Virus record (IMG/VR): IMGVR_UViG_3300011114_000961
Location: 62,001 to 125,970 of that record
Reading direction: 5' to 3' (one strand)
DNA length: 63,970 nt
DNA from: an uncultured virus (IMG/VR IMGVR_UViG_3300011114_000961)
Taxonomy: Duplodnaviria; Heunggongvirae; Uroviricota; Caudoviricetes
Positions within the stretch are counted from its first letter, which is position 1, and each line of letters begins with the position of its first letter. Under the pieces are notes generated by a model. The model saw only the letters and a program-made list of their open reading frames with translations. It made no database searches and was not told the origin of the DNA. Shown piece after piece: positions 29,075 through 58,613 of this stretch. Position numbers and translations under genes: made by a program.

Positions 29075-29863
29075 ATGACCGACTTTGTACCTGATCCACT
29101 ACTGACTCCTCAAGACCAAGAATTCGTTCCTATGGAACAAAAACTATATGTAAAAAAAGAACCAGGTACCACTGGCAAATATCTCAGTGCCGCATTGCGC
29201 GATCGAATGAAAACAGATGGCAAGAGATTCTGGGCCGGCGATAACATCTCAGACTACGTAAGTGAATCAGCTAAGGAACACTTGATCAATGAAGCCGCAG
29301 AAGCATTTGAAAAAGTGCTGGACGCACTGCTGATTGATCGTGAAAATGATCCAAACAGTAAGGGCACTGCTCGACGTTTGGCCAAGATGTATTACAACGA
29401 GATAATGGCAGGACGATATGAACCAGCACCAGACGCAACAGCATTTCCAAACGATTCGCAGGACCGATATGAAGGCATGTTGGTGGTGCGTAGCGAGTTA
29501 CGTAGTATGTGCAGTCACCATCATCAGCCTGTTAGTGGTGTTGCCTACATTGGAATTATCGCTGCACAAAAACTTATTGGGTTGTCTAAGTATACTCGTA
29601 TTGCTCAGTGGTGCGCTAGGCGCGGTACTTTGCAGGAAGAACTCTGCAACGACATTGCCAGAGAAATAATGAAGGCAACTGACGCAGAAGATGTGGCCGT
29701 GTATGTACAAGCCATTCATGGCTGCTGTGAGAATCGTGGTATCATGGCACATTCAAGTCTCACACAGACCACTGTGCTCAAAGGTGCATTCCAGACTGAT
29801 CAAAGCACAAAGAAAGAGTTCTTTGACAATATCAAACTACAACAAGAATTTGCACCAAGATAA
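29075..29863 (+). CDS. folE: GTP cyclohydrolase I
   Basis: SMCSHH, IGLSKYTR, LQE, HGCCENRG motifs. Confidence 0.95.
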   Translation: MTDFVPDPLLTPQDQEFVPMEQKLYVKKEPGTTGKYLSAALRDRMKTDGKRFWAGDNISDYVSESAKEHLINEAAEAFEKVLDALLIDRENDPNSKGTARRLAKMYYNEIMAGRYEPAPDATAFPNDSQDRYEGMLVVRSELRSMCSHHHQPVSGVAYIGIIAAQKLIGLSKYTRIAQWCARRGTLQEELCNDIAREIMKATDAEDVAVYVQAIHGCCENRGIMAHSSLTQTTVLKGAFQTDQSTKKEFFDNIKLQQEFAPR

Positions 29864-29953
29864 ATCTTTTCAAAAGAGACAAAATTGGTAGGTTGACTCA
29901 AAATTATGTTTCAGTTATAATGTCTAGTATCACTAATCAATTTAGATTACATT

Positions 29954-31234: not shown

Positions 31235-31626
31235 TGGATTTAGCAGAAGCACAACAAACAGGCATAGCACCGTGGGATCAACATCTTAAAGACCTCAGTG
31301 ATTTTCACGTCACCGTGTTTCAAGATCGTTATCCAGTCGCACCGGGACATTTGCTGTTCGTACCAAACTACAATACTCTCACAGTGATCAATGATGCATT
31401 TGAAAGTGCATTACGATATGGCGAAAGAATGGTGAGACAGGGAGAATATGATGGATACAATATTGGTTTTAATTCTGGCACCGCTGCTGGTCAGACTGTG
31501 ATGTATCCACACATACATTTGATCCCTCGGCGGCACGGTGAGTGTACTGATCCAATAGGTGGTGGGCGTGGGGTCATACCTGGGCAGGCCAACTACAAAA
31601 CAGATGGCTATAAACAGCCAGACTAA
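31234..31626 (+). CDS. HIT-family nucleotide hydrolase
   Basis: PGHLLFVP and AGQTVMYPHIHLIPR motifs. Confidence 0.9.
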   Translation: MDLAEAQQTGIAPWDQHLKDLSDFHVTVFQDRYPVAPGHLLFVPNYNTLTVINDAFESALRYGERMVRQGEYDGYNIGFNSGTAAGQTVMYPHIHLIPRRHGECTDPIGGGRGVIPGQANYKTDGYKQPD

Positions 31627-31707
31627 ATATCCATACATCGGCCTATCGGCATCGTCCCGCTATACAAACTCCGCCGCCTATGCTATAATCTAACATAGGA
31701 GAAAATC

Positions 31708-32190
31708 ATGGCAAAGAAATATTTTTCAACAAAAACTTACAGGCAAATTGGCCCTGTGGCCTATCGTCAATGGCGTGCGGATAGTCATTGCAATCTCATA
31801 CATGGTTACGCAATGAGCTTTCACTTCGAATTTGAAGCAGACACCCTGGACGCACGTAACTGGGTCACTGACTTTGGTGGACTGAAACCGCTCAAAGAAA
31901 AACTAGAAGAATGGTTTGACCATACTTTGTTAGTGGCACAAGATGATCCCATGCGTGAGCACCTGTTGGAACTGGGTCGCTTGAAACTGGCCAAGATTAC
32001 TGAAGTAGAACGCACTGGTTGTGAAGGCATTGCTGACTTTTTGTATGAATACATTAACACTATCTTCTTGCCCAACTGCGGCAGCGAAGAAGCCCGACGT
32101 GTGTGGTGTACCAGAGTAGAAGTTCGTGAAACAGATTCAAACATGGCAGGACGTCAAGGACACAGAGAGGACCATGAATTCAATGACTGA
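31708..32190 (+). CDS. queD: 6-carboxytetrahydropterin synthase
   Basis: CNLIHGY, DFGGLK, FDH, VRET motifs. Confidence 0.88.
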   Translation: MAKKYFSTKTYRQIGPVAYRQWRADSHCNLIHGYAMSFHFEFEADTLDARNWVTDFGGLKPLKEKLEEWFDHTLLVAQDDPMREHLLELGRLKLAKITEVERTGCEGIADFLYEYINTIFLPNCGSEEARRVWCTRVEVRETDSNMAGRQGHREDHEFND

Positions 32191-33043
32191 ACATCGTTAT
32201 AACATAGCCATGCTATTGGCCACTCGTGGCCGCACTGCCAGTCTAGACCGCAGCATACGCAGTCTAGTAGAACTGGCAGATGATCCTAAAAAATTGCAAT
32301 TGATGTTTGCATTTGACAAGGACGATGAAATAGGCACAAGTTTTTTTAAAGAAACATTGCAGCCTTGGTTAGATTCTCAATCAGTCACCTACGTGGCCAT
32401 GCGGTTTGATCGGTTAGGCTATGTGAATCTGCACAAATACAACAATGCATTGGCCAAGCTGTCTGACAGCGAATGGTTGATGATCTGGAATGATGATGCT
32501 GTGATGCAAACCAAAGGATGGGACAGTGTGATCATGAGCTACACAGATCCGCATTTGAAATTGTTGGGCTTCTGTACTCATAACATGCATCCTTACAGCA
32601 TCTTTCCCACTATACCTCGTGCTTGGTTTGATTTGTTGGGTTATATCTCTCCGCACAGCACACAAGATGGGTGGGTGAGTCAACAAGCATACCTGTTGGA
32701 TATCTATCACAGAATTCCAGTTGATGTGTTACACGATCGATTTGATCTTACTGGCAACAACGGGGATGCCACTTTCTTGGACCGACATATTTTAGAAGGC
32801 AAACCACTGGATCCAAATGATTTCCATAGTTTACCAAATCTTCAAATACGTCAAGGTGACTGTGCCAAATTGGCCATGTACATGCAAGAGCATGGGCAGA
32901 GTACTGAATATTTCGAAAATGTGTTTAAAGGTACTCAAGAGCCGTGGCAGCGACTGCTAGAAAACGACCCTAACAATCAAATGAAACAATTTAACAATCC
33001 ACACTTTGGCAAACCGGCGACTGCAGAATCAATAAGTACATGA
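32183..33043 (+). CDS. GT-A glycosyltransferase (GT2-like), paralog 1
   Basis: LLATRGR and WNDD motifs; collinear with 35068-35913. Confidence 0.75.
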   Translation: MTEHRYNIAMLLATRGRTASLDRSIRSLVELADDPKKLQLMFAFDKDDEIGTSFFKETLQPWLDSQSVTYVAMRFDRLGYVNLHKYNNALAKLSDSEWLMIWNDDAVMQTKGWDSVIMSYTDPHLKLLGFCTHNMHPYSIFPTIPRAWFDLLGYISPHSTQDGWVSQQAYLLDIYHRIPVDVLHDRFDLTGNNGDATFLDRHILEGKPLDPNDFHSLPNLQIRQGDCAKLAMYMQEHGQSTEYFENVFKGTQEPWQRLLENDPNNQMKQFNNPHFGKPATAESIST

Positions 33044-35040
33044 TGAAACATAAAATTGCCTGGGTCCAACCCAATTTCCAACAAGGTCCCAAAGAGTTCA
33101 ATGCGTATTACCTGCCCTACTCAGCTGGTGTAGTATGGAGTTACAGTCTAGCTGACCCAGAGATCCGCGAACGATTTGAAGCCACTGATTGGATCTGGCG
33201 CAGAGATGCCATAGAACCATTGGCACAGCGTCTAGCACAAAATCAAATTGTGACTTTCAGCACCTACGTATGGAATCATCGGTACAATTATGCACTGGCC
33301 AAACGAATCAAAGAAATAAATCCTGCTGTGTTGACTGTGTTTGGTGGCCCCGAAGTTGCAATTACCGATCCTGACTTGTTTGTGAAAGAACCTTTTATAG
33401 ATCTCGTGATCTGCTACGAAGGAGAAATAACTTTCAAAAATGTGCTACAGCATTTTGAAACCAAAGATTGGGAAAATGTATCCGGTGTGTTGATCAACAG
33501 AGATGGTCGAGCAGTAAAGACACAAGATGCCAAACGCATTGAATCATTAGAAGAAGTGCCAAGTCCGTACTTGGCAGGCATCTTTGATCAAATGATAGCC
33601 GAACATCCTGACGTGACATGGCAAGGTACTTTGGAAACCAATCGTGGATGCCCATTTGCTTGCACATTTTGTGACTGGGGCAGTCTGACCTATAACAAGG
33701 TCAAGAAGTTCGAACTAGAACGTGTGTTTGAGGAACTGGAATGGATGGCCAAACACAACTTTGACTGGATCTCAATTACAGATGCCAACTTTGGTATGTT
33801 CCCCGAACGTGATGGCATGATTGCAGACAAGATCATTGAGATGCAAGAAAAGTACGGATCTCCGAGAACATTCAGTGTGGCCTGGGCTAAAAATCAAAAG
33901 AAAGAAGTCATAGACATTGTGAAGAAATTGTTGGACGCACGTGGCTTCAACCAAGGCCTGACACTGAGTGTACAAAGTTTAGATTTGGATGTGCTGGAAA
34001 ACATTCGTCGAAAAAACATGGAGATGAACAAGTTAGAAGAAGTGTTTGAGCTGTGCGACCAGCGCAACATTCCTGCCTACACAGAACTCATACTTGGTTT
34101 GCCCGGAGAGTCACTGGAATCATGGAAGAAAAACTTCTATGCATTGTATGATTTGAATCAGCACACTGGTATCACTGTGTTCCAGGCACAGTTGTTGGAA
34201 AACGCCGAAATGAACTTGTTGCAAAAGAAACTGTTCAAGATCACCAGTCAACCTGTTACTGATTACTTTGCCGGCAGTTACAGTGTGGAACACATTGAAG
34301 AAAGCATTGATGTCATAACAGGCACCAAAGATATGCCTACCCCAGTGATGTTGGATGCACAGATCTTTTCGTGGTTCCAGACCACATTCCATATCAATGG
34401 ATTTGCTACTCTGGTTGCTAGATTCATCAACAAGTACAAAGGCCTAAGTTACAACGACTACTATGAAGATTTATTTGCGTACTTTCTGACCAACGATTGG
34501 TTAAAAAAGGAAGAAGCTGAGGCAAGGCAATATTTCTCCAACTGGATGACCACTGGTCGAATTAACCATCCCAAGATTGGTGTGGAGATACACGGTTGGA
34601 ATATCATTCATAGAACCAGTATGAACATGCATCAAGAAGATCGTGTGGATGAACTGTATGATTTCTTGGAAATATTTTTACAACGTTACGACTTACCCAA
34701 AGATTTGTTGGCCAGTTTGATGAAGCTGCAAAGAGGTTACTACATCAAATACAACGACAGAAATCAATATCCAATGAATCTTGAATTGGACTATAATATT
34801 TGGGATTATTTGAGTTTCAACCAAGCTCTACAGAAGACTGCCACAACATATCGCTTGGACTTTCCAGAAGACAAAACCATGAGCCGCAATCGATTTTTGG
34901 AGTTGTTTTATTTTGCAAGACGCAGAAATTTTGGCAAAGCCACAGTGGATTTGGTAGGAGTTGAAAATCTCAAAGGTACACATCGCGGTGCTGGTGCTGC
35001 CAAAGCACAAGGTACTTTTTCTATTAAAAAAACGTATTAA
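33040..35040 (+). CDS. B12-binding radical SAM protein
   Basis: FSTYVWN..GGPE..EGE cobalamin-binding domain; RGCPFACTFC; LILGLPGE. Confidence 0.92.
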   Translation: MMKHKIAWVQPNFQQGPKEFNAYYLPYSAGVVWSYSLADPEIRERFEATDWIWRRDAIEPLAQRLAQNQIVTFSTYVWNHRYNYALAKRIKEINPAVLTVFGGPEVAITDPDLFVKEPFIDLVICYEGEITFKNVLQHFETKDWENVSGVLINRDGRAVKTQDAKRIESLEEVPSPYLAGIFDQMIAEHPDVTWQGTLETNRGCPFACTFCDWGSLTYNKVKKFELERVFEELEWMAKHNFDWISITDANFGMFPERDGMIADKIIEMQEKYGSPRTFSVAWAKNQKKEVIDIVKKLLDARGFNQGLTLSVQSLDLDVLENIRRKNMEMNKLEEVFELCDQRNIPAYTELILGLPGESLESWKKNFYALYDLNQHTGITVFQAQLLENAEMNLLQKKLFKITSQPVTDYFAGSYSVEHIEESIDVITGTKDMPTPVMLDAQIFSWFQTTFHINGFATLVARFINKYKGLSYNDYYEDLFAYFLTNDWLKKEEAEARQYFSNWMTTGRINHPKIGVEIHGWNIIHRTSMNMHQEDRVDELYDFLEIFLQRYDLPKDLLASLMKLQRGYYIKYNDRNQYPMNLELDYNIWDYLSFNQALQKTATTYRLDFPEDKTMSRNRFLELFYFARRRNFGKATVDLVGVENLKGTHRGAGAAKAQGTFSIKKTY

Positions 35041-35067
35041 CTGTATAAAATAATTGTGAGAGAATTT

Positions 35068-35913
35068 ATGGATACTGAATTCAAGTATGATATCAGTGTG
35101 CTGTTGCCCACACGAGGGCGTACTACTGCACTGAGACGAAGTGTACAATCACTGTACGACAATGCAGCTGACCCAAAGTCAATATACTTAATGCTGGGTT
35201 TTGATCAGGACGATGCTGTGGGCACAGACTATTTTTATACCAGTTTGAAACCCTGGTTGGATTCTATCAAAGCCAACTACACCGCAATGAAATTTGAACC
35301 CATGGGGTATATTCGACTGAACGAATATGTGAATGCAATGGCACGCATGGTCAAATCTCGTTGGTATATCATTTGGAATGACGATGCTGTGATGCAGACG
35401 CCTGCATGGGATAGTGAAATTATGAAACATGAAGGTAAATTCAAACTGTTGGCATTCTGCACACACAATTTACATCCTTACAGTATTTTTCCCATTGTGC
35501 CACGCAAGTGGCTGGAATTGTTGGGATATCTTTGCCCGCATCAAATTTCTGATGCATGGCTGAGTCAACAGGCCTACATACTAGATGTGTTTGAACGCAT
35601 ACCTGTTGATGTGGCACATGAACGTTACGATCTCACTGGAAAAAATCAAGACGCTACTTTCAACAACAGACCCATGCTGGAAGGCAATCCCAAAGACCCT
35701 AGAGATTTTTTATACGCGGATGTGATAGAACTACGATATAGCGATTGTAGGAAAATTGCTGCATACATGGAAAGTATAGGAATGAGCACTGAGTTTTTTA
35801 AAAACGTACTTAGAGGCACACAAGACCCCTGGGAAAAACTCAAGATCAATGACGTAAATCATCAACAATCACAATGGAGCATGGAGATCAAACGATCTAT
35901 CATGGAAGGATAA
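35068..35913 (+). CDS. GT-A glycosyltransferase (GT2-like), paralog 2
   Basis: LLPTRGR, WNDD, HPYSIFP motifs. Confidence 0.75.
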   Translation: MDTEFKYDISVLLPTRGRTTALRRSVQSLYDNAADPKSIYLMLGFDQDDAVGTDYFYTSLKPWLDSIKANYTAMKFEPMGYIRLNEYVNAMARMVKSRWYIIWNDDAVMQTPAWDSEIMKHEGKFKLLAFCTHNLHPYSIFPIVPRKWLELLGYLCPHQISDAWLSQQAYILDVFERIPVDVAHERYDLTGKNQDATFNNRPMLEGNPKDPRDFLYADVIELRYSDCRKIAAYMESIGMSTEFFKNVLRGTQDPWEKLKINDVNHQQSQWSMEIKRSIMEG

Positions 35914-35916
35914 TCA

Positions 35917-36699
35917 ATGAACGACCAAACACTTGAACAGCGTATCATACGCTACTGGGACAATCAACCTTGTAATATTTTACATGGCACCAGCGAAGTA
36001 GGAACATTGGAATTTTATCAACAGGTATCTGAACGCAGATATCGAGTGGAGTCACACATAAGAGAATTTGCCAGCTTTCATCTTTGGCAAGGCAAACGTG
36101 TGTTAGAGATTGGCTGTGGCATAGGAACAGATGCTGCTGAATTTGCCCGATACGGTGCAGATTATACTGCTATTGACATTAGCCCGCGCACGGTAAAATT
36201 AGCTCAAGAACGATTCAAAGTTGAAGGGCTGGATGGAAACTTTGTGTGCGGCGATGCCAGTGATGCTGCGGTATACCAAGGCCTGGGCCAGTTTGATTTG
36301 GTTTACAGTTGCGGAGTCATGCATCACTTTCCACGGATTGATGATATGATACAAAATGCATATGACGTGTTGGTGCCTCACGGCGAATTTAGATTTTTGG
36401 TATACGCCAAAAACAGCTGGAAGTACAGCATGATTCGTAAAGGTCTCGATCAATTTGAAGCACAAAATGGTTGCCCGTATGCCAAGGCCTACACCAATGA
36501 AGAAGTGTATGCATTGTTGGGCGACCGTTTTCATATTGAGCGTTTGCGCCAGGCACATTGTTTCATGTACGATGTGCCGGCTTACAAACAAGGTAGATAT
36601 GAATTGGAACCTTGGTTTGAGGCCATGCCGGCTGACATGCGAGATGCCATCAAAGAATATCTTGGGTGGCACCTTCTGGTCAAAGCTCGGAAAACATGA
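35917..36699 (+). CDS. Class I SAM-dependent methyltransferase
   Basis: VLEIGCGIG, IDIS, FDLVYSCGVMHH motifs. Confidence 0.92.
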   Translation: MNDQTLEQRIIRYWDNQPCNILHGTSEVGTLEFYQQVSERRYRVESHIREFASFHLWQGKRVLEIGCGIGTDAAEFARYGADYTAIDISPRTVKLAQERFKVEGLDGNFVCGDASDAAVYQGLGQFDLVYSCGVMHHFPRIDDMIQNAYDVLVPHGEFRFLVYAKNSWKYSMIRKGLDQFEAQNGCPYAKAYTNEEVYALLGDRFHIERLRQAHCFMYDVPAYKQGRYELEPWFEAMPADMRDAIKEYLGWHLLVKARKT

Positions 36700-37403
36700 G
36701 CCGATTATTTGCATTTGGTTGTAGTTTTACCAACTATCGTTGGCCTACTTGGGTGGATTGTTTAGAGCCTGAGTTTGATCACACACAAAATTGGGGACAG
36801 GCCGGTGGCGGCAATCACTACATATTCAATTCAGTAATGGAATGTGATCAACGCAATACTTTTGGTCCAGGTGACACTGTGGTTGTGTGTTGGACCAGTA
36901 TAGATCGTGAAGATAGATATGTAGACAATCGCTGGCATACACCGGGAAATGCATATTTTGCCAAAACGGTGTATCATCCAGAATATATTCGTTCACATAT
37001 TGATGAGCGAGGATTTTTAATACGAGATTTAGCATATATCAAAGCTGTTAAAACATTGTTAGAATCACGTCCAGGAGTTGACTGGAAATTTTTAAGCATG
37101 GTTGAACTCATGGCAAGACCCAATGACGACGATGATGTGAGTCAATATCGTGATGTCATGCGACTTTACAGCAATGTGCTAGATTGCATTTTACCCGGAT
37201 ACGATAAAACAGTTTTTAAAAACAACTGGCCCAAACCCGGACCTGATCCGCACCCCAGTCCTGAAGAACATTTGGCTTACTTAGATGCAGTGTTACCAGG
37301 ATGGGTGACAAAATCTGAAACTCGTGTTAAAATGCACAAAGTCAGTATCAATCTAAATAAAGATCCAAACTACTCAGGAATGACCAAGGTAACAAGATTA
37401 TGA
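36696..37403 (+). CDS. SGNH-like hypothetical protein
   Basis: GCSFT, NWGQAGGGN, DPHP motifs. Confidence 0.6.
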   Translation: MSRLFAFGCSFTNYRWPTWVDCLEPEFDHTQNWGQAGGGNHYIFNSVMECDQRNTFGPGDTVVVCWTSIDREDRYVDNRWHTPGNAYFAKTVYHPEYIRSHIDERGFLIRDLAYIKAVKTLLESRPGVDWKFLSMVELMARPNDDDDVSQYRDVMRLYSNVLDCILPGYDKTVFKNNWPKPGPDPHPSPEEHLAYLDAVLPGWVTKSETRVKMHKVSINLNKDPNYSGMTKVTRL

Positions 37404-38251
37404 GCAAAATTAAAATAGCAGAACTATTCTACAGCATACAAGGCGAAGGCCGCTACATGGGTGTGCCCAGTGTGTTCTTACGTACATTTGGCTGCAACTT
37501 TAAATGTGCAGGCTTTGGAATGCCACGCGGAAAATTGAGTGATGAAGCAGAATTCATTGATCCTACAAAATTTCGTACATACAATGAATTGCCATTAGTA
37601 AGCACAGGCTGTGACAGTTACGCCAGCTGGGATCCACGTTTCAAAGACCTAAGTCCAATGCTGACTACAGATGCCATTGTAGAACGTATTATAGAAATAC
37701 TTCCGCATGGCGAGTGGCGCGATGAGCATTTGGTTATCACCGGAGGCGAACCATTGCTGGGATGGCAGAAACAATTTCCAGACTTGCTGAAACATCCCAA
37801 GATGAAAGGTCTTAAAGAAATTACATTTGAGACAAATGGCACTCAAAAACTAACAACTGAATTCAAACAATACCTGCATACATGGAAATATCATGATGAT
37901 ATTGACTTTTGTAGAGACGTTACATTTAGTGTGAGTGCCAAATTACCATGCAGCGGAGAGCTGTGGTCGGATGCTATCAAACCTGAATGTGTATTCGAGT
38001 ATGAAGAGTATGGCACAGCATATTTGAAGTTTGTTATTGCCACAGAACAAGACTTTGTGGATGCTGAACGTGCCATTGTTGAATATCGTAATGCTGGATT
38101 TACAGGACACGTTTATCTAATGCCAGTGGGCGGTGTAGAAAGTGTTTATGCAATGAACAATCGTAATGTAGCACTGTTGGCAATGAAACATGGATTACGA
38201 TACAGTGACCGACTACAAGTTCCATTGTTTAAAAACGAATGGGGCACCTGA
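37400..38251 (+). CDS. queE: 7-carboxy-7-deazaguanine synthase
   Basis: ELFYSIQGEG, RTFGCNFKC...CD, TGGEP, ETNGT motifs. Confidence 0.92.
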   Translation: MSKIKIAELFYSIQGEGRYMGVPSVFLRTFGCNFKCAGFGMPRGKLSDEAEFIDPTKFRTYNELPLVSTGCDSYASWDPRFKDLSPMLTTDAIVERIIEILPHGEWRDEHLVITGGEPLLGWQKQFPDLLKHPKMKGLKEITFETNGTQKLTTEFKQYLHTWKYHDDIDFCRDVTFSVSAKLPCSGELWSDAIKPECVFEYEEYGTAYLKFVIATEQDFVDAERAIVEYRNAGFTGHVYLMPVGGVESVYAMNNRNVALLAMKHGLRYSDRLQVPLFKNEWGT

Positions 38252-44549: not shown

Positions 44550-44840
44550 TATTGCTGTATGAAGCAAAGAGAAAAGTGTTCTGGACGCGGGTTCGACTCC
44601 CGCCAGGTCCACCAAAAGAACTTTTGCATTAGCCACACCAGAAATGCAGTATGTGGGGGAATGTTAGTCGATAGTTCTTTTGATGGGCCTGCCCTGGTTT
44701 CGACAGAGTAAAGAGTAACAGAGTGGACAGCACAAGAGCAACCTTGTAAAAAGAAGAAAATCTATAAACGCAAACGACGAACTGTTCGCATTAGCAGCCT
44801 AAACGCCGCTTAGGGTAAGACATACCTCGTAACAGAAATT
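44550..44840 (+). ncRNA. ssrA: Circularly permuted (two-piece) tmRNA; tag (A)ANDELFALAA
   Basis: T-arm plus CAGGTCC-A-CCA (ends 44614) precedes GGGCCTG (44685), giving a G3.U70 acceptor stem; tag ORF 44770-44802; outer ends approximate. Confidence 0.92.
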
Positions 44841-46545: not shown

Positions 46546-46644
46546 ATGATTATGCAACAAGCCCAACTGTCCCGAGAGATACCCTCACTCAACTATGCGA
46601 GTGAGGCGCTGGATTATGACTTCAGCGGGCCTAGTGATATTTGA
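46546..46644 (+). CDS. Putative leaderless leader peptide 1 (32 aa)
   Basis: TTGCTT-N17-TATAAT ends 5 nt before the ATG; followed by a terminator. Confidence 0.6.
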   Translation: MIMQQAQLSREIPSLNYASEALDYDFSGPSDI

Positions 46645-46662
46645 TACTACACAAATTTCACG

Positions 46663-46693
46663 AAAGACCCGCCAACTAGGCGGGTTTTTTTTT
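46663..46693 (+). terminator. Intrinsic terminator / attenuator 1
   Basis: acccgcc-aacta-ggcgggt plus T run. Confidence 0.85.
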
Positions 46694-46919: not shown

Positions 46920-47157
46920 CACTATATGTAAACACAATTATACAGGTTACCTACATCGTTAGGTGAGTGATAGGATTATGGGTTTGAGCCCCGCCGTGGC
47001 TGGCTACTCCTCCACTTACAAGATGCTGAATCAGTGGCTTAGGCCATGAAGATGAGGAAGACGAAACAGGTAGGCAGTAATGACGGCGATTGGTCTAATC
47101 ATAGCTAGATTAGATTTTATCAGCAAAGTTCCTGTATAATTGTGTTTTCATATAGTG
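46920..47157 (+). repeat. Conserved-stem RNA cassette 1
   Basis: 27-nt inverted repeat with one mismatch (cactatatgtaaacacaattatacagg / cctgtataattgtgttttcatatagtg). Confidence 0.8.
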
Positions 47158-47163
47158 AATCAT

Positions 47164-47238
47164 GGAGCATTCGTCTATCGGTTAGGACAGTGGGTTTTCA
47201 GTCCACTAAGAGCGGTTCGACTCCGCTATGCTCTACCA
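47164..47238 (+). tRNA. tRNA-Glu(TTC)
   Basis: Cloverleaf, TT-TTC-AG loop, CCA. Confidence 0.9.
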
Positions 47239-47280
47239 AGTTATGGAGAAGCGGGTGCTGCGGCATCTGTTATCCACCAA

Positions 47281-47466
47281 GTTTTGTAAGTGTAGATGTA
47301 GTGAAAGTAAGGCGTCGAAAACCTTATGAGGCAACGGTTCGAGTCCGGCAACATGGCAACTGCTAAGTAGCTACTATTACTACGTACCTCTATCCTGTCC
47401 GCGGCTTCACAGAAAATACAGGTAGAATGGTAGCAATGAGTGAGGTGCTGCTACTTACAAATTCAA
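47281..47466 (+). ncRNA. Unassigned structured RNA, copy A
   Basis: Shares terminal and internal motifs with 48282-48504; closing stem tttgtaagt/acttacaaa. Confidence 0.65.
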
Positions 47467-47475
47467 TTTATATGG

Positions 47476-47560
47476 TATTATATAAAAACACATTTTGCTT
47501 TGGATGCGTGACAACTTTGTCGGATGCGTAGGGCTTACTAAAGTGTGTTCCTATATGGTA
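47476..47560 (+). repeat. Conserved-stem RNA cassette 2
   Basis: tattatata-aa-aacacatttt / aaagtgtgtt-cc-tatatggta. Confidence 0.75.
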
Positions 47561-47609
47561 ATGTTATCTGCAGGTAGCATCCGTGCTGGGGAGTAATTGC
47601 CCTCAGGAA

Positions 47610-47677
47610 CTCGCGGTCTTCTAGTGGTTAGGATGCCCTTAGTGGGTGATGCAGGTTCGAATCCTGTCCGCAATGAG
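47610..47677 (+). other. tRNA-like element with shortened anticodon arm and no CCA
   Basis: D-loop AGTGGTTA and T-arm gcagg-ttcgaat-cctgt; anticodon hairpin only gccc-ttagt-gggt. Confidence 0.55.
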
Positions 47678-47680
47678 TTT

Positions 47681-47795
47681 GCCATATAAGAACATACTCC
47701 AGGTTGGGTTAGATTCGCGGTCTAACTATTTGGGTCTGTAGTGTAGCCCTCCAAAACTACACGTGACTAAGATACGTAGTGTGTTCCTATATGGT
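47681..47795 (+). repeat. Conserved-stem RNA cassette 3
   Basis: gccatata-ag-aacatact / agtgtgtt-cc-tatatggt. Confidence 0.75.
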
Positions 47796-47989
47796 AAGAA
47801 TCCCGTTACTACTTTCGTTAAAGTAGCGTTTGACTAGCGATAGAGGTCCGGTGGCAGAAGACCGTTAGCGGAGCAATCCTGAATCTGATAGGCAGTTATC
47901 TTTCTGCACACAGATACCAGATAAAAAAGATGGACAGAGTAACCGCTCAATCAAGGGCTGGTGTGGAAACCAGTAGCTTGTCCTTATTT

Positions 47990-48064
47990 GGTCTCAAAGT
48001 GTTCATGGACGCACACAACACTGTCACTGTTGAAGAAGGGGATCGTTACCCCTTGAGACCGCCA
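47990..48064 (+). tRNA. tRNA-Asp(GTC), atypical T-loop
   Basis: GGTCTCA/TGAGACC-G-CCA; CT-GTC-AC loop; T-loop ATCGTTA. Confidence 0.85.
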
Positions 48065-48110
48065 AGTTATGGAGAAGCGGATGCTACGGCATCTGTTATC
48101 CACCTTTTAT

Positions 48111-48183
48111 GTGTGAGAGCCGGATTAGTGACGGTGCTGATGTATGTCAGTGAAAGGGTGAGCGAACCCACCCCCACACACCA
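48111..48183 (+). other. Degenerate tRNA-like element ending ACCA
   Basis: Acceptor 6/7 paired, D-stem gccg/cggt, non-canonical anticodon and T loops. Confidence 0.5.
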
Positions 48184-48189
48184 AGTTAT

Positions 48190-48281
48190 CTCTGAGTAGA
48201 CGAATCGGTAAAGTCGTCCTTACTAGTAGGTCAAAAAGGTTCCAAAAACCTTGGTGGTTCAATTCCACTCTCAGAGGCCCA
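48190..48281 (+). other. Degenerate type II tRNA-like element (Leu-like; CTA/TAG in the loop)
   Basis: CTCTGAG/CTCAGAG acceptor, ggtgg-ttcaatt-ccact T-arm, long variable arm, irregular anticodon arm. Confidence 0.55.
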
Positions 48282-48504
48282 GTTTTGTAAGTGTCAGCAA
48301 GAGAAAGTCACGCTATACTGTATTCTTCGAAGGTACTTTATAGTAGAAGGTTAATGGGTTCAACTCCCACCCGCGGGCAACTGCGGAGGTCTGCAACGGA
48401 GACTGTACTGGACCTGTATCCCAAGTGACGTACCGAACCCCGCTCGAGCTTGTTAATTCGGGGGAATGGTAGCAATAGTGTGGTGCTACTACTTGCAAAT
48501 TCAA
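48282..48504 (+). ncRNA. Unassigned structured RNA, copy B
   Basis: Paralog of 47281-47466. Confidence 0.65.
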
Positions 48505-48509
48505 TATCA

Positions 48510-48585
48510 GCCCCGGTGATGTAACGGTAGCCATGTTGGTCTTAGAAACCAAATTCTGGGAGTTCGAGTCTCCCCTGGGGCACCA
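48510..48585 (+). tRNA. tRNA-Leu(TAG), short variable loop
   Basis: Cloverleaf, CT-TAG-AA loop, A73-CCA. Confidence 0.85.
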
Positions 48586-48594
48586 ATCAAAAAA

Positions 48595-48679
48595 GCGAGT
48601 GTGGCGTAATGGTAGCCGCATCAGACTTAAAATCTGAGGTCGTAATGGCGTGCCGGTTCGAGTCCGGCCACTCGTACCA
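48595..48679 (+). tRNA. tRNA-Leu(TAA)
   Basis: Type II cloverleaf, CT-TAA-AA loop, CCA. Confidence 0.92.
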
Positions 48680-48684
48680 ATTCA

Positions 48685-48776
48685 GGAAGATGATGCAGCG
48701 GGGATGGTCCTGCGACTGGCCTTGAAAACCAGGTTCTCTTAACAGGGATGGGGTTCGACTCCTCCGTCTTCCGCCA
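48685..48776 (+). tRNA. tRNA-Ser(TGA) with 8/4 acceptor/T-stem fold
   Basis: GGAAGATG/CGTCTTCC 8-bp acceptor, 4-bp T-stem, long variable arm, G73-CCA. Confidence 0.85.
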
Positions 48777-48835
48777 ATTTTACCAAAATCAGTTGACCAC
48801 TAAAAACAATGGTGTTATACTAGATAAATACATGC

Positions 48836-48914
48836 AGCGGAGTGGGGGAGTTCGGTCGTCCCCGGAAGTCTCATAAGCTTCAGATCGGTGGTTCAAATCC
48901 ATCCTCCGCATCCA
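48836..48914 (+). tRNA. tRNA-Met(CAT), initiator-like
   Basis: CT-CAT-AA loop, 1:72 mismatch, TTCAAAT T-loop; promoter TTGACC-N17-TATACT at 48793. Confidence 0.8.
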
Positions 48915-48995
48915 TTTTAACCTGTGTTGTATAAATACAACACAAGATATTTTAAGAGGTTGACTTCTTAAGATATATAACGTATAATTGATACT

Positions 48996-49121
48996 ATGAA
49001 AACGCAAATCTGTTCACTGTTGATTAAACCCATGCATCAGGCAAGTACCTGGGCGCGTGGCTATGGTCGCGTGAATACATTTCCAGGAGCCCGCGGGTCC
49101 TTGAGGAGTCATATACTGTAA
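48996..49121 (+). CDS. Putative leaderless leader peptide 2 (41 aa)
   Basis: TTGACT-N17-TATAAT (48960-48988) ends 7 nt before the ATG; followed by a terminator. Confidence 0.65.
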   Translation: MKTQICSLLIKPMHQASTWARGYGRVNTFPGARGSLRSHIL

Positions 49122-49142
49122 CAAGTATCAAGACATACCCAA

Positions 49143-49176
49143 AAGGACCCCGGAACTAAAAACTCCGGGGTTTTTC
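49143..49176 (+). terminator. Intrinsic terminator / attenuator 2
   Basis: accccgga-actaaaaac-tccggggt plus T run. Confidence 0.85.
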
Positions 49177-49400
49177 ATTTTGTAGAGTTGAATAGTGTGA
49201 ATAGGTAACGTGGACCTAGCCTGCACTTAAAACATGGGCAAACGGGCGGCCTCGGGGATGGCTTGTGTTCTTGTACATAAAAAAATCCGAGCGTATTAAA
49301 ACAGATTGCGTATCCGTTGCTGGTCGCTTGACAGAAATGTTATTCCCACAGCATACATTCTGTTTTAATACACACATTCGCAAGAGTGTGGAACAATTTT

Positions 49401-49483
49401 GGGGACATGGCAGGTGGTCGATTGCGACAGACTGTAAATCTGTTCTTAATAGCGCGGTGGTTCGAATCCATCTGTCTCCACCA
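49401..49483 (+). tRNA. tRNA-Tyr(GTA)
   Basis: Cloverleaf, CT-GTA-AA loop, CCA. Confidence 0.9.
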
Positions 49484-49587
49484 GTTATTGTATAGAGAGC
49501 TTCGATTACGGCACCTCTATACAAAACAACATAGAAGGCGTAATCCTAGTCTGCCCAGTAGCAGAGCGTCTATGTTGTGTTTTTTTC

Positions 49588-49663
49588 GGGGGATTGGTAT
49601 ACTTGGCTAACACACCTGGTTTGCAACCAGGAGCAAACGGTTCGAATCCGTTATCCTCCACCA
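49588..49663 (+). tRNA. tRNA-Ala(TGC)
   Basis: G3.U70 pair, TT-TGC-AA loop, CCA. Confidence 0.92.
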
Positions 49664-49670
49664 GTTTTGT

Positions 49671-49744
49671 TGGGACATTGTGTAATGGTAGCACAACAGA
49701 CTTTGACTCTGTTAGCCTAGGTTCGATCCCTAGTGTCCCTGCCA
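49671..49744 (+). tRNA. tRNA-Gln(TTG)
   Basis: Cloverleaf, CT-TTG-AC loop, CCA. Confidence 0.92.
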
Positions 49745-49745
49745 A

Positions 49746-49821
49746 GCAACTTTAGCTGATGTGGTCATAGCGGCGGCCTGAAGAGCCGTTGAAGTAGGTT
49801 CGATTCCTACAGGTTGCACCA
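49746..49821 (+). tRNA. tRNA-Phe(GAA)
   Basis: Cloverleaf, CT-GAA-GA loop, CCA. Confidence 0.9.
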
Positions 49822-49828
49822 ACAACAT

Positions 49829-49906
49829 GTAGCGGTGGCAGAGTGGCCCAATGCATGGGATTGCAAATCCCAAAAACCGTGAGTTCAAATCTCACCCGCT
49901 ACTCCA
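49829..49906 (+). tRNA. tRNA-Cys(GCA)
   Basis: TT-GCA-AA loop, U73-CCA. Confidence 0.92.
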
Positions 49907-49955
49907 AGTCAAGTCCATACAGCCCTTTGACGGCTTCGTCCCTGGACAGTTTTTT

Positions 49956-50032
49956 ACCGCCTTGGCTCAATTGGATAGAGCACTGGATTACGAATCCGGG
50001 GGTTGGGAGTTCGAATCTCTCAGGTGGTACCA
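49956..50032 (+). tRNA. tRNA-Arg(ACG)
   Basis: TT-ACG-AA loop, CCA. Confidence 0.92.
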
Positions 50033-50042
50033 TTTGTTATAT

Positions 50043-50119
50043 GGTGTCTGTCGCCAAGTGGTTAAGGCCTCGGGTTGTGATTCCGACATGCGTGGGTTCG
50101 ATCCCCATCAGACACCCCA
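50043..50119 (+). tRNA. tRNA-His(GTG)
   Basis: G-1:C73 pair, TT-GTG-AT loop, CCA. Confidence 0.92.
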
Positions 50120-50124
50120 GTTTT

Positions 50125-50199
50125 GGTTGTGTGACGTAGATGGATGCGTACCGCCCTCATAAGGCGAGGAGGTTGGATCGATGCCAACCACAACCACCA
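50125..50199 (+). tRNA. tRNA-Met(CAT), atypical T-loop
   Basis: GGTTGTG/CACAACC acceptor, CT-CAT-AA loop, T-loop ATCGATG. Confidence 0.8.
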
Positions 50200-50202
50200 T
50201 GT

Positions 50203-50276
50203 GTATCCATAGTGTAATGGCAGCATCGCGGTCTCCAAAACCGTCAGTCTAGGTTCGAGTCCTAGTGGGTACGCCA
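50203..50276 (+). tRNA. tRNA-Trp(CCA)
   Basis: CT-CCA-AA loop, G73-CCA. Confidence 0.92.
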
Positions 50277-50316
50277 AGTTTTTTATATGCTGTCGATACA
50301 GCATAAGTATTTTCAC

Positions 50317-50406
50317 GGAACGGTCCTATAATGGTATTAGAGCAGATTGCTAATCTGTCGCTCGGCGTAATCCGGGTTCTGAGTTCGAGTCTCAGTCGTT
50401 CCGCCA
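50317..50406 (+). tRNA. tRNA-Ser(GCT)
   Basis: TT-GCT-AA loop, long variable arm, G73-CCA. Confidence 0.9.
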
Positions 50407-50413
50407 AGTTTAT

Positions 50414-50489
50414 TCCTCAGTAGCACAGCGGTAGTTGCACTTGACTGTTAATCAAGATGTCCGTGGTTCGATCCCACGCTGAGGAGCCA
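50414..50489 (+). tRNA. tRNA-Asn(GTT)
   Basis: CT-GTT-AA loop, G73-CCA. Confidence 0.93.
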
Positions 50490-50508
50490 ATTTAATTTAG
50501 GAAACAAA

Positions 50509-50673
50509 ATGTCATCATTTAACACAAGCAACGATCCCATGAAGCATCACAGTGGCAAACCCAGACTGGGACCGCTGAATGTTGCTCAACTCACCAAGAT
50601 GTTGGAGAGTGCCAGGCCCAAGCACCGAGCCAAGATTCAACGTGCTATAGACAAAAGATCAAAGACATCCTAA
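50509..50673 (+). CDS. 54-aa basic hypothetical protein (absent from the ORF track)
   Basis: AGGAAA RBS; MSSFNTSNDPMKHHSGKPRLGPLNVAQL... Confidence 0.6.
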   Translation: MSSFNTSNDPMKHHSGKPRLGPLNVAQLTKMLESARPKHRAKIQRAIDKRSKTS

Positions 50674-50680
50674 CAATCAC

Positions 50681-50754
50681 GCCCTACTAGTACAATGGCA
50701 GTACACTGGTTTTGTAATCCTGTGATGGCAGTTCGATTCTGTCGTGGGGCACCA
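50681..50754 (+). tRNA. tRNA-Thr(TGT)
   Basis: TT-TGT-AA loop, CCA. Confidence 0.88.
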
Positions 50755-50773
50755 ATTTTTCAAAGGAGAACGT

Positions 50774-51034
50774 ATGGAACGATACAAACAACTAGTTCGC
50801 ATCCAGCGTTGTATCCTGGGCGAAGTAGATCACGAAGTAACTGTTCGCAATATTGACGGCAACTATCACTGCCGTGTGTATGTCAACGGTGAACTCAATC
50901 AAGAAGCAGTATGCTTGAACAAGCGTGACATCAGTTACACTTGCCGTAGTATGTTGCGGTGGGAAGACAAGTGCGGCAACTTTAGCGAATTTGCTACTGC
51001 GGCTCGAGCTCGACTCAACAAAGAACACATTTAA
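50774..51034 (+). CDS. Hypothetical protein
   Basis: AAGGAG RBS, 86 aa. Confidence 0.7.
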   Translation: MERYKQLVRIQRCILGEVDHEVTVRNIDGNYHCRVYVNGELNQEAVCLNKRDISYTCRSMLRWEDKCGNFSEFATAARARLNKEHI

Positions 51035-51128
51035 AAGGAAACATGACATGAAACGTGCTAAACGCTAGTGTCAATCCAGATCCCATGTAGGTCCGGGTTG
51101 GCACGTGAAAGACAATTTTACATACCAA

Positions 51129-51203
51129 CCCTCTAAGATGTTAAGGCAGCATGCCGGACTCTTAATCCGTGACGTCCGAGTTCAAATCTCGGTAGAGGGA
51201 CCA
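51129..51203 (+). tRNA. tRNA-Lys(CTT)
   Basis: CCCTCTA/TAGAGGG acceptor, CT-CTT-AA loop, CCA. Confidence 0.88.
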
Positions 51204-51207
51204 ACAT

Positions 51208-51283
51208 GGGATCGTGGTGAAATGGTTATCACAGCGGACTTTTAATCCGCCAGTTCCCGGTTCGAATCCGGGCGGTCCTACCA
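51208..51283 (+). tRNA. tRNA-Lys(TTT)
   Basis: CT-TTT-AA loop, CCA. Confidence 0.92.
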
Positions 51284-51364
51284 TATAAAAACACATTACC
51301 TAGTAGTAGCGGCGTACCCGTGAGCTATTAGTAGTCCTGCAGGCTAGTGTGTTTCTATATGGTA
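51279..51364 (+). repeat. Conserved-stem RNA cassette 4 (overlaps the tRNA-Lys CCA)
   Basis: taccatata-aa-aacacatta / tagtgtgtt-tc-tatatggta. Confidence 0.8.
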
Positions 51365-51410
51365 AAACTCAAGTTGACAAGGATCAACTTTGATGCTACA
51401 ATAAGATTTC

Positions 51411-52304
51411 AAGGGCGGTTTAACGTCCTATAAGCCAGCTTGCTGGTTTATGAAGAATAACTGTGGTGACACAGCCAAAGGAGGTATGCCTACATAACTC
51501 CGCTAGAGATAGTTCGTTTAAGCAAGCCTGCTCACTACCGTGAGGTAGCGATCACTGATAAGACCGGTGGTTGTAACAATGACGCTGGATGTTGTGGAAA
51601 GAACGTTGATTTACAAGCCCGCAAGGGGAACTTGAGTCGATGGAAAGTAACAGGTGGTGCTGACTTCACAACTAAACCAGTCCAGTTAATTAGTATGAGA
51701 AAGGGTAGCGTATTTGTCCGAGGGGTTGCACCCAAGGGCTCGTATGCAGTTTGAGTGGTTAGTGGGTCTGTCGAAAGGCGGGGACACACCGATCGCAAAA
51801 GACGACTGAGTAGTTCGCAAGACAAAAGGTACGTGGTGTGTTGTATTGTGTATTCCAAAAGAGTATGCAGCAACTGAGTCAGCACATCGCAGTAGGTTCA
51901 GTTATAGGCTAATGGTAGGCCGATTTCCTTTTAAGAAATAGACTGAAGGTTCAACTCCTTCTAACGATTAAAACGCAAAGACTGACTCGGTTGTATGTGA
52001 AAAGCATCTAATACTTGGCTCGCAAGAGAACCAAGTCTAATGAAGCTCGCAAGGTGACATTAGTTTATGCAGGAAGTTTCGTAAGGTGTTAGCGCACTTG
52101 AATGGCTCGCAAGGTCAACGGAATAGAAAGCGTAGAATAGCATACAGCGTCAAGACTACTGCCTGTCTCTAAACGGCGATGCTGACAGCAGACCAGGATA
52201 CCTAGAAATAGGGCCGGGTGGAAGTCGGAAGAAAGTATACTCGCAAGGTGTACAATAATGTCCGAGGTGTTGTTGGAGAGGATGTATTCTCAGTCCTTTC
52301 ACCA
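51411..52304 (+). ncRNA. Large ornate ncRNA, GOLLD-like, with embedded tRNA-Lys-like domain
   Basis: ~890 nt without a plausible ORF; own promoter TTGACA-N17-TACAAT (51374); about nine GNRA-type hairpins; ends pair (aagggc/gtcctt); lies inside a tRNA array. Confidence 0.75.
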
Positions 52305-52389
52305 TATGCAAACACATTAGATACCTTTTAGCATACGTTCGCACGGCGCTCTTGTATGTTAGATTACTTTTAGTGTGTTTCCATATGGT
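52301..52389 (+). repeat. Conserved-stem RNA cassette 5
   Basis: accatatg-ca-aacacattag / ttagtgtgtt-tc-catatggt. Confidence 0.8.
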
Positions 52390-52526
52390 TATCATATAAA
52401 TGCTTTCTGTAGTAGCTACACTGGAACAACACCAACCTTCACTAGCCCGCGGCGTGTGAAGAAGTGCCAGGAAGAGCAGGGCTACCGTGGATTCAAGCGC
52501 CGCAGAGAGCACCTATATATTATCAT

Positions 52527-52601
52527 GGCCGGTTAGCTCAGGGGGAGAGCATCGTCTTGATAAGGCGAGGGTCGATGGTTCGAAACCATCACCGGCTACC
52601 A
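52527..52601 (+). tRNA. tRNA-Ile(GAT)
   Basis: TT-GAT-AA loop, CCA. Confidence 0.92.
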
Positions 52602-58077: not shown

Positions 58078-58362
58078 ATGAGCACCGAACAAGACCGATT
58101 CAAACACTCTAAGCGTTTACTCAAAGACGAAAATGCTATTAAAAAACAAACCAAGATTGCCAAAGCTGCTGGCTCGGACATAAGCCAACCACATAAGTTT
58201 GCCAAGCAGCATGCCATGGATTGTGGCAATCCAAAGTGTTTGCTTTGTTCAAGAGAAAAAGTTTTTGGGGAGCCAACTATACAACAAAAGAGATTTGATC
58301 AAAACGTAGAAGACATCAGAGATCGACACAGCAACGGATTATCAACAAAGGATGAAGAATGA
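58078..58362 (+). CDS. Hypothetical basic protein with CxxxxCxxC motif
   Basis: ORF directly after TTGACA-N17-TATAAT. Confidence 0.7.
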   Translation: MSTEQDRFKHSKRLLKDENAIKKQTKIAKAAGSDISQPHKFAKQHAMDCGNPKCLLCSREKVFGEPTIQQKRFDQNVEDIRDRHSNGLSTKDEE

Positions 58363-58613
58363 ACGTACTACTTGAACGCACCGCCGGACTCACTAGCCAG
58401 GCCGCAGCACTTGCAATCGGCAGCCGATACAATCTGGTATTGATTGCTTCTAGACGCATGCGAGAACTCATGCGCGGCGATCCTGCCCAAGTGCCAACTC
58501 GTTATGGTCCTGCAGTCACAGCCCTGTTGGAGATCGAAGCAGGAAAAATCACAATGGATTATCTATACAAACAGCAAGACATTGCGCCGCGACGTCGATC
58601 AAAACACTATTGA
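58359..58613 (+). CDS. rpoZ: RNA polymerase omega subunit-like protein
   Basis: SRYNLVLIASRRMREL..G and AVTALLEIEAGKI match the omega signature. Confidence 0.8.
   Translation: MNVLLERTAGLTSQAAALAIGSRYNLVLIASRRMRELMRGDPAQVPTRYGPAVTALLEIEAGKITMDYLYKQQDIAPRRRSKHY

What the first reader, a model, noticed from the sequence alone, without database searches (positions are those of the whole stretch)
46920..52389. Family of RNA cassettes: one conserved, covarying closing stem around unrelated cargo
Seen: five elements (46920-47157, 47476-47560, 47681-47795, 51279-51364, 52301-52389) share the near-consensus ACCATAT(A/G)-NN-AACACA...TGTGTT-YY-(T/C)ATATGGT. The two arms pair, with a mismatch at the same NN position. 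Position 8 covaries (G:C in copies 1 and 5, A:T in copies 2-4) and G.U substitutions are tolerated, which points to selection on an RNA helix. The interiors (about 45-185 nt) are unrelated but structured. Two copies begin on the ACCA end of the preceding RNA (tRNA-Lys, GOLLD-like RNA). A looser sixth element lies at 49293-49371. Inference: a shared processing or protein-loading handle (RNase III-like site or phage RNA-binding protein) releasing a panel of small RNAs, perhaps antisense or anti-defence decoys; cargos 1 and 3 contain anti-SD-like CTCCTCC/CCCTCC. Alternative: MITE-like insertions at RNA 3' ends.
Basis: partly seen in the sequence, partly recalled or inferred. Interest (0 to 1): 0.82.

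Follow-up and report, generated by a model that had tools for sequence, protein, structure and literature searches.

The report
Cut-out RNA cassettes between phage tRNAs
In the tRNA gene arrays of large uncultured phages, a conserved double-stranded stem grips the CCA tail of one RNA and encloses a swappable small RNA; its base pairs fit a cutting site for the host enzyme RNase III, which would free both the tRNAs and many undescribed small RNAs, but no cut has been observed.

Summary
The five stems are real. The sixth is a divergent member, and I found a seventh (52394-52518). They lie in the tRNA/GOLLD array of a jumbo phage. IMG/VR scans gave 376 unique copies in 251 loci from two distant phage groups; none matches Rfam. 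282 start on the A of a CCA end (124 on tRNA-Lys UUU), and 100 end right before the next tRNA. G-U versus A-C counts (185:6) show an RNA helix on the tRNA strand. There are no target-site duplications, so these are not MITEs. Scored with a published E. coli RNase III pair matrix, one cutting register stands out (family-wise p about 0.009; antisense control 0.22), and the rare substitutions alone pick the same register. Predicted products: tRNA-CCA plus 4 nt, a cargo with an 11-bp stem, and the next tRNA with a 3-nt leader. Cargos form 202 clusters that move between tRNA slots. Anti-SD motifs are not enriched; T-loops are. Cleavage, host and cargo function are unshown. This scan reported the family before on other genomes (e1-5337218 and others). 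New here: the register test, copy 7, and a similar stem in cultured Vibrio phage 2.275.O.

The parts
46920..47157 (+). E1: 27-bp stem with a U.U mismatch around a cargo of about 200 nt. Family-register cuts after 46928 and 47150; its own best-scoring register lies deeper in the stem (46934/47144).
   Evidence: same cargo in L448, L438, L453
47164..47238 (+). tRNA-Glu(UUC), starting 10 nt after the paired end of E1 (47153)
47476..47560 (+). E2: stem with a 2x2 A.C loop and a 45-nt cargo; predicted cuts after 47484 and 47553 (score -22.9)
47607..47684 (+). Uncalled tRNA-like cloverleaf ending in GCCA; its last A is position 1 of E3
   Evidence: fold (z 0.06, so the fold alone is not significant); similar 3' ends precede elements in L084, L119, L233; missed by ARAGORN and Rfam
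47681..47795 (+). E3: stem on the CCA of the tRNA-like RNA, 77-nt cargo; predicted cuts after 47688 and 47789 (score -22.1)
   Evidence: cargo relatives in differing stems; 7 compensatory pairs among 3 sequences
49293..49371 (+). E6: divergent fully paired stem; poor fit at the family register (-28.7), best two pairs further in (-23.1)
   Evidence: its cargo lies in a canonical stem between tRNA-Lys and tRNA-Met in L023
51208..51283 (+). tRNA-Lys(UUU); A76 (51283) is position 1 of E4
51280..51363 (+). E4: canonical copy, 46-nt cargo; family-register cuts after 51287 and 51357 (-23.2); the register one pair outward scores -22.0
   Evidence: the same cargo follows tRNA-Thr or tRNA-Gln in L065, L069, L113
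51833..52304 (+). GOLLD RNA (Rfam match 51833-52296); its 3' end folds as an 8-bp minihelix (52276-52300) followed by ACCA, on which E5 starts
   Evidence: the same junction in L407, L409, L048
52301..52389 (+). E5: stem with a C.C mismatch and a 51-nt cargo without relatives in the loci held; predicted cuts after 52308 and 52383 (-22.1)
52394..52518 (+). E7 (new): divergent stem with a 2x2 A.C loop at positions 6/7 and a 93-nt cargo; predicted cuts after 52398 and 52515 (-24.2); tRNA-Ile starts at 52527
   Evidence: the same cargo in canonical stems in L422, L417, L381, L399; 10 compensatory pairs and 11 broken cells among 8 sequences

Best explanation
Each element is a spacer cassette in a polycistronic tRNA/ncRNA precursor. 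Its arms form a helix of about 19 bp that begins by pairing the CCA of the upstream RNA with UGG (shown by pairing counts). The host RNase III makes a staggered double cut just outside the central mismatch: after position 5 of the 5' arm and after position 4' of the 3' arm (inferred from fit to the E. coli matrix). This would leave the upstream tRNA with CCA plus 4 nt for exonuclease trimming. An abutting downstream tRNA would keep a 3-nt leader for RNase P. The cargo would come out as a small RNA closed by about 11 bp with a 2-nt 3' overhang (all inferred). Because arms and tRNAs are shared, cassettes can be exchanged between slots and phages by recombination (inferred from slot/cargo mixing). 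The cargos are a panel of structured small RNAs, about a tenth with a tRNA T-loop. Their most likely role is as decoys or ligands for host RNA-binding proteins rather than antisense RNAs (weak inference).
For: Anchoring: 282 of 376 elements are preceded by CCA, and 202 start on A76 of a called tRNA; 100 end just before the next tRNA. Sequence-blind test: 264 of 1969 CCA-ending tRNAs start a 16-bp stem at A76, against 4 of 1969 at A76+40. 71 of 74 abutting non-His tRNAs begin GG, against 572 of 1930 overall. RNA strand: 185 G-U vs 6 A-C cells, 52 vs 6 without position 14. RNase III matrix (Altuvia 2018 Table S4): register 5 gave mean -24.2 with 75% of 289 elements at or above the paper's -25.5 cut-off; 0 of 2000 pair-order permutations reached it. 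On 201 cluster representatives, 92 of 10000 permutations reached it family-wise, against 2200 of 10000 for the antisense reading; minor variants alone also chose register 5, 0 of 1000. In that register the invariant A-U pairs fall on D and D', where A-U/U-A dominate; position 2 U-A falls on C'; the mismatch falls on B; U.G/U-A at 14/15 fall on J/K, like the UA/UG distal box of Pertzev 2006 (this mapping is my inference from the 11-bp geometry). 42 stems of other sequence that start on A76 lean to the same register (16 of 2000). The same scanner puts the E. coli 16S stem cut at +33 and about -115, the positions I recall as known. Two phage groups with DNA polymerases 56-86% and 29-38% identical to this one share the stem, and 0 of 30 records encode RNase III, dsRBD or TROVE, which points to a host factor.
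Against: The host is unknown (searches gave nothing), and the matrix comes from E. coli. Register 5 is best for only 82 of 201 representatives (register 7: 49), and register 7 passes the cut-off in 61%. I had first expected register 7. In the window E1, E4 and E6 score best elsewhere. The two central pairs are U-A/A-U in most copies, where E. coli prefers G-C, and A.C at B occurs in only 4 of 85 E. coli sites. Positions 9-13 are more conserved than the matrix requires, though my retrieval patterns enforce part of that. The similar stem of Vibrio phage 2.275.O scores -39.2 at register 5. For the 42 other stems the result does not survive correction for 15 registers. The ungapped scanner did not return the 23S cut near the mature ends (expected position recalled). 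None of the 7 window copies abuts a downstream tRNA. Cargos alone fold only weakly better than shuffles (median z -0.47, n=195).
Confidence: 0.65

Rival explanations
1. The whole spacer is released by ordinary tRNA maturation (RNase P at the next tRNA, RNase E or exonucleases at CCA). The stem stays uncut and protects the small RNA or loads it on a sequence-specific phage or host protein.
For: 74 of 376 elements fill a spacer exactly from A76 to -1. The arm sequence is strongly conserved. 49 of 201 representatives prefer another register.
Against: C74/C75 pairing with the downstream GG is selected (71 of 74) and would hinder RNase P and exonucleases unless the helix is cut. The substitution spectrum follows RNase III rules. 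0 of 30 records have dsRBD or TROVE. 42 A76 stems have unrelated sequences.
Confidence: 0.2
2. The stem masks the CCA end to keep a reserve of tRNA-Lys(UUU) and other RNAs away from host tRNA-targeting defences until it is opened. Processing is secondary and the cargos are largely neutral.
For: 124 of 202 tRNA-anchored copies sit on tRNA-Lys(UUU), which I recall as a target of anticodon nucleases such as PrrC. 130 of 202 cargo clusters are singletons.
Against: The bias may be inherited synteny. Masking CCA does not shield the anticodon. Cargo families show compensatory changes (2-10 pairs per family). 94 of 376 copies are not on CCA.
Confidence: 0.1
3. MITE-like DNA elements with terminal inverted repeats that insert at tRNA 3' ends.
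For: Inverted ends, variable interior, the same cargo at different tRNAs (18 of 30 informative clusters), and 19 tandem neighbours.
Against: Flanking direct repeats are at chance level: 4-mers 30 of 376, 8-mers 0. Wobble asymmetry is on the tRNA strand. Position 6 is a fixed mismatch. 233 of 260 pattern hits lie within 300 nt of a tRNA. No transposase was found among 150 of the 167 ORFs called in the partial genome.
Confidence: 0.04

Closest known systems
RNase III processing stems: E. coli 16S rRNA leader/trailer helix and the five T7 early-transcript signals (PMC3867540, passages read; rules from PMC6212723 and PMC1540722)
   Same: A long helix that closes an unrelated RNA in a polycistronic precursor; fits the in vivo pair matrix in one register.
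   Different: It begins on the CCA of a tRNA, is repeated with one sequence in many copies, and carries interchangeable cargos. The ACAC/UGUG run it shares with the 16S stem lies in a different register relative to the cut.
Theta ribozymes of gut phages (PMC10879173, abstract and passages read)
   Same: An RNA element placed at phage tRNA 3' ends, proposed to process the trailer.
   Different: Theta RNAs are HDV-like self-cleaving ribozymes with a conserved core; here the core is free and only the closing helix is conserved.
tRNA-spacer sRNAs such as E. coli 3'ETS-leuZ (10.1101/2021.04.25.441314, passages read) and T4 RNAC/RNAD (PMC3014915, one passage)
   Same: Small RNAs cut from tRNA precursors; T4's are phage-encoded and of unknown role.
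   Different: 3'ETS-leuZ is made by RNase E and acts by base pairing; neither is described with a shared closing stem or a swappable panel.
Y RNAs / YrlA (recalled architecture; Rfam RF02553)
   Same: A conserved end-to-end stem with a variable, sometimes tRNA-like interior; found in tRNA clusters.
   Different: No Rfam Y RNA match on any element examined, and no TROVE gene in 30 carrier records.

Membership tests
RNase III double-cleavage substrate | Helix of at least 11 bp beyond the cut | tested here: met
   Positions 6-16 are paired on the inner side (position 16 in 254 of 290); only about 7-8 bp on the outer side
RNase III double-cleavage substrate | A-U/U-A at D and D' (no G-C antideterminant) | tested here: met
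   A-U in 201 of 201 representatives at both positions
RNase III double-cleavage substrate | Score at or above -25.5 on the Altuvia matrix in one register | tested here: met
   75% of 289; 146 of 201; 6 of 7 window copies at register 5, E6 failing
RNase III double-cleavage substrate | G-C/C-G preferred at the two central pairs | tested here: not met
   A' is U-A in 196 of 201; A is A-U in 143 and G-C in 35. This is a preference in E. coli, not a requirement
RNase III double-cleavage substrate | Distal box UA/UG | tested here: inconclusive
   U.G (132 of 201) and U-A (193 of 201) at J/K; I could not see the figures that fix the box position and orientation
RNase III double-cleavage substrate | Enzyme-dependent cuts with 2-nt 3' overhangs | not testable with these tools
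   Only contigs were available
MITE | Target-site duplication | tested here: not met
MITE | Strand-neutral terminal inverted repeats | tested here: not met
   G-U 185 vs A-C 6 on the tRNA strand; fixed mismatch
Y RNA (YrlA) | Match to the Rfam model and a linked Ro60 gene | tested here: not met
   one sub-threshold YrlA hit in L371 (831-945) lies outside the element
Theta / HDV-like ribozyme | Conserved double-pseudoknot catalytic core | tested here: not met
   No ribozyme family among the Rfam hits; 202 unrelated cargo clusters. Self-cleavage itself was not tested
Mini-III site (ACC^U) | Cut in the ACC register | tested here: not met
   Register 0 scores -31.4 and is not significant; the partner cut would fall inside an abutting downstream tRNA

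The most novel reading that the evidence does not exclude
Large phages run a modular small-RNA payload system. A standard RNase III socket, plugged onto tRNA CCA ends, lets them stack, swap and co-release hundreds of different structured RNAs, some of them tRNA-arm mimics, which act as a changing arsenal of decoys against host defence or RNA-binding proteins: an RNA-level analogue of gene-cassette arrays.
Probability: 0.3. Interest if true: 0.85.

Novelty: new variant of a known kind. Interest (0 to 1): 0.63.

Why it matters
How big phages mature 30 or more tRNAs from long precursors is little known. This gives a nucleotide-level prediction that can be tested with purified RNase III and in standard E. 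coli rnc strains. The stem also works as a tag for finding phage small RNAs: it yielded 202 cargo clusters; those checked (the window and 20 other loci) have no Rfam match. A short socket that releases any RNA with defined ends could serve as a multiplex RNA expression part.

Tried and rejected
RNA evidence: 24 RNA runs held at most 0.15 of the words. Four were laid, all contigs from mixed strains. One contig lies at 46950-47139 inside E1, but contig ends cannot show RNA ends and do not match the predicted 46928/47150; not used. GTDB pattern scan: 9 of 116 hits near tRNAs, with free positions paired 45-66%; used as a chance control; the tRNA-rich hits look like phage contigs in MAGs (inference). 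Antisense role: no excess match of 202 cargos to E. coli rRNA, antisense 10-mers or longer 24 vs 27.6; window cargos have no partner in their own genome beyond chance; GGA and anti-SD words are not enriched; 1 of 202 has an SD plus ORF. My first guess of a dyad at positions 6/7 ranked second. Cultured phages: BLAST of the region found only tRNA and GOLLD hits among the listed rows. A76 stems were 0 of 35 (BUDD), 0 of 25 (nt-1), 1 of 26 (bux), 1 of 1 (Phosso, imperfect) and 0 of 1 (XbC2). Of five cultured jumbo relatives scanned for the arm I followed up 9 regions, and only 2.275.O had a partner arm; the exact arm in 121Q lies in a CDS without one. In one search row L448 was given on the wrong strand; in the E6 alignment rows L127 and L185 are not homologous; both ignored. 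The promoter scan (13 vs 10.1 expected) is not significant.
Full report
Setting. The window is the second half of a 125,970-base virus record. Its DNA polymerase is closest to cultured jumbo phages Phosso (49.5%) and Atu_ph07 (46%), and the 100% identical RpoZ lies on a 308-kb contig, so the record is probably partial. ARAGORN tRNA/tmRNA genes from 43.3 to 58.0 kb, all on the + strand. Rfam adds GOLLD (51833-52296) and a permuted, betaproteobacterial-type tmRNA. No Rfam family overlaps any of the stems, even at E 10. A betaproteobacterial host is only a guess from the tmRNA.

Observation. The five elements exist and fold as stated. Numbering from the first A of ATAT as position 1, the pairs run from -3 to 16 with a mismatch at 6. 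E3, E4 and E5 start on the A of a CCA: of a tRNA-like RNA, of tRNA-Lys(UUU), and of a minihelix that ends GOLLD. E1 and E2 do not. The looser element at 49293-49371 and a new one at 52394-52518 have divergent arms, but their cargos occur inside canonical arms in other phages (1 locus for E6; 5 hits with 4 distinct flanks for E7).

The family. Of these 337 loci plus the window, 305 carry a called tRNA and could be oriented; the other 33 were left out. A relaxed search (5' arm with up to two changes, nearest good partner) gave 376 unique elements in 251 loci, most 60-150 nt long and 11 of 200-250 nt. 202 start on A76 of a called tRNA (Lys UUU 124, Gln 23, Glu 14), 282 follow a CCA, 100 end directly before the next tRNA (Met CAU 49, His 26), and 74 do both. 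The same pattern in GTDB genomes behaves like chance: 9 of 116 hits near a tRNA. Without using the motif, 264 of 1969 CCA-ending tRNAs start a long stem at A76, against 4 forty bases further on; the loci were chosen for the motif, so this measures anchoring, not frequency. 42 such stems have other sequences, and C74/C75 still pair with G in 29 and 32 of them. Among the 30 longest carrier records there are two groups, of 340-375 kb and of 150-175 kb, with polymerases 56-86% and 29-38% identical to this one.

It is an RNA helix. Among 290 elements, position 5 is A-U 215, G-C 44, U-A 23; position 14 is U.G 195, C-G 62, U-A 29; position 16 takes all pair types; position 6 is paired in only 73. G-U cells outnumber A-C cells 185 to 6 on the tRNA strand; my partner search counted G-U as a pair, a small bias in that direction. 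These are counts of related sequences, not a phylogeny-corrected test. Abutting non-His tRNAs start with GG in 71 of 74 cases against 30% of all tRNAs, so the CC:GG extension is selected. Flanking direct repeats are at chance level.

Mechanism test. I took the pair counts of 85 in vivo E. coli RNase III double-cut sites (PMC6212723: passages, section 27 and Supplementary Table S4 read) and scored the stems in 17 registers. Register 5 was best: mean -24.2, 75% of 289 at or above the paper's threshold, 0 of 2000 permutations of pair order. With one element per cargo cluster (201), the family-wise value was 92 of 10000 and the antisense reading gave 2200 of 10000. The consensus alone (7 of 3000) and the 431 minor-variant cells alone (0 of 1000) each picked register 5. 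The mismatch types seen at position 6 (A.C 208, C.A 29, U.U 27, C.C 11, one purine-purine of 376) are those the matrix shows at B. rRNA operons were excluded from that matrix, and the scanner placed the 16S cut at +33 and about -115; it missed the 23S site. Against: register 7 is a close second, only 82 of 201 representatives score best at 5, and the central pairs are A-U rich. Pertzev and Nicholson (PMC1540722: abstract, passages, figure legends) give the 11-bp minimum and the UA/UG distal box; placing it on positions 14/15 is my inference. No RNase III, dsRBD or TROVE gene was found in 30 records, 17 of them at least 90% complete, nor among 150 of 167 ORFs of this genome. So the enzyme would be the host's. 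The downstream steps (exonuclease trimming, RNase P) follow from general knowledge of tRNA maturation and were not tested.

Cargos. The 376 cargos fall into 202 clusters, 130 of them singletons. The Lys-to-Met slot holds 24 clusters in 27 elements, and 18 of 30 informative clusters sit behind two or more different tRNAs. In the five largest clusters 2-7 cargo pairs show compensatory change with few broken cells (structures predicted on the same alignments). Folding energy alone is only weakly unusual (median z -0.47). The T-loop word GGTTC occurs in 32 clusters against 9.8 expected, and GGTTCRA in 20. Anti-SD, GGA and rRNA-complementary words are not enriched. In the 20 loci scanned against Rfam no element matched a family. 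What the cargos do is open; protein decoys are my best guess, with low confidence.

Cultured relative. Vibrio phage 2.275.O has a 15-bp stem with the same inner arm at 189696-189782, ending one base before tRNA-Arg(UCU) and starting just after a TATAAT hexamer. It does not fit register 5 (-39.2; best -27.5 at register 10), so it is a lead, not a confirmation.

Prior work. Searches for GOLLD/tRNA/RNase III, phage tRNA-cluster structured RNA, RNase III with tRNA precursors, T4 rnaC/rnaD, and jumbo-phage tRNA-array hairpins (listings only) showed no description. The arm words were absent from the readable supplements of PMC10690425, but its files 1 and 2 could not be read. PMC12286853 passages do not mention a CCA end of GOLLD. 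The library lacks most subscription papers. Earlier notes of this scan describe the same family on other genomes and also lean to a processing mark; they are unchecked AI notes and no support. My RNase III idea was stated before I opened them.

Verdict. A real, widespread, uncatalogued phage RNA element. It most likely works like an RNase III processing stalk, used in a new way: anchored on CCA ends and carrying exchangeable small RNAs. Cleavage is predicted, not shown.

Noticed in passing
window 44600-44700: The spacer of the permuted tmRNA forms a stem (z -2.9) whose best RNase III register cuts right after the CCA (44614) and 2 nt before the mature 5' end (score -23.2).
   Followed up: partly
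window 47243-47281 and 48069-48104: Two 95% identical copies of a roughly 38-nt minihelix; the first ends in CCA. No Rfam match.
   Followed up: partly
window 47282-47467 and 48283-48505: Two related structured RNAs of about 200 nt with their own closing stem; related contigs are deep in lake RNA assemblies. Possibly the knotted RNA of earlier scan notes; not compared.
   Followed up: no
window 47466-47475: An orphan 3'-arm-like end (TATATGGT) directly before E2, perhaps a relic of a lost cassette.
   Followed up: no
window 47800-47985: A non-coding stretch between E3 and tRNA-Asp with very deep related contigs in two RNA runs; no Rfam match.
   Followed up: no
window 48189-48281 and 51898-51969: A tRNA with a CUA (amber) anticodon called by ARAGORN, and a tRNA-Lys embedded in the GOLLD match.
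   Followed up: no
window 46547-46693 and 48996-49180: Two short leader-ORF plus terminator arrangements heading parts of the array; the first has weak Phe/Trp-leader hits.
   Followed up: no
L054, L073, L086, L092, L153: Long stems that start at A76 and enclose a whole tRNA-His or tRNA-Met rather than a cargo.
   Followed up: no
L472:2697-2783 (MG592671.1): A similar stem just before tRNA-Arg in cultured Vibrio phage 2.275.O, which also has an annotated tRNA nucleotidyltransferase nearby.
   Followed up: partly
window 58359-58613; L123:19312-19530; window 29075-38251: The phage encodes an RNA polymerase omega subunit, IF-1, ClpP/ClpA-like proteins and queuosine-pathway-like genes (GTP cyclohydrolase, PTPS, radical SAM).
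   Followed up: no
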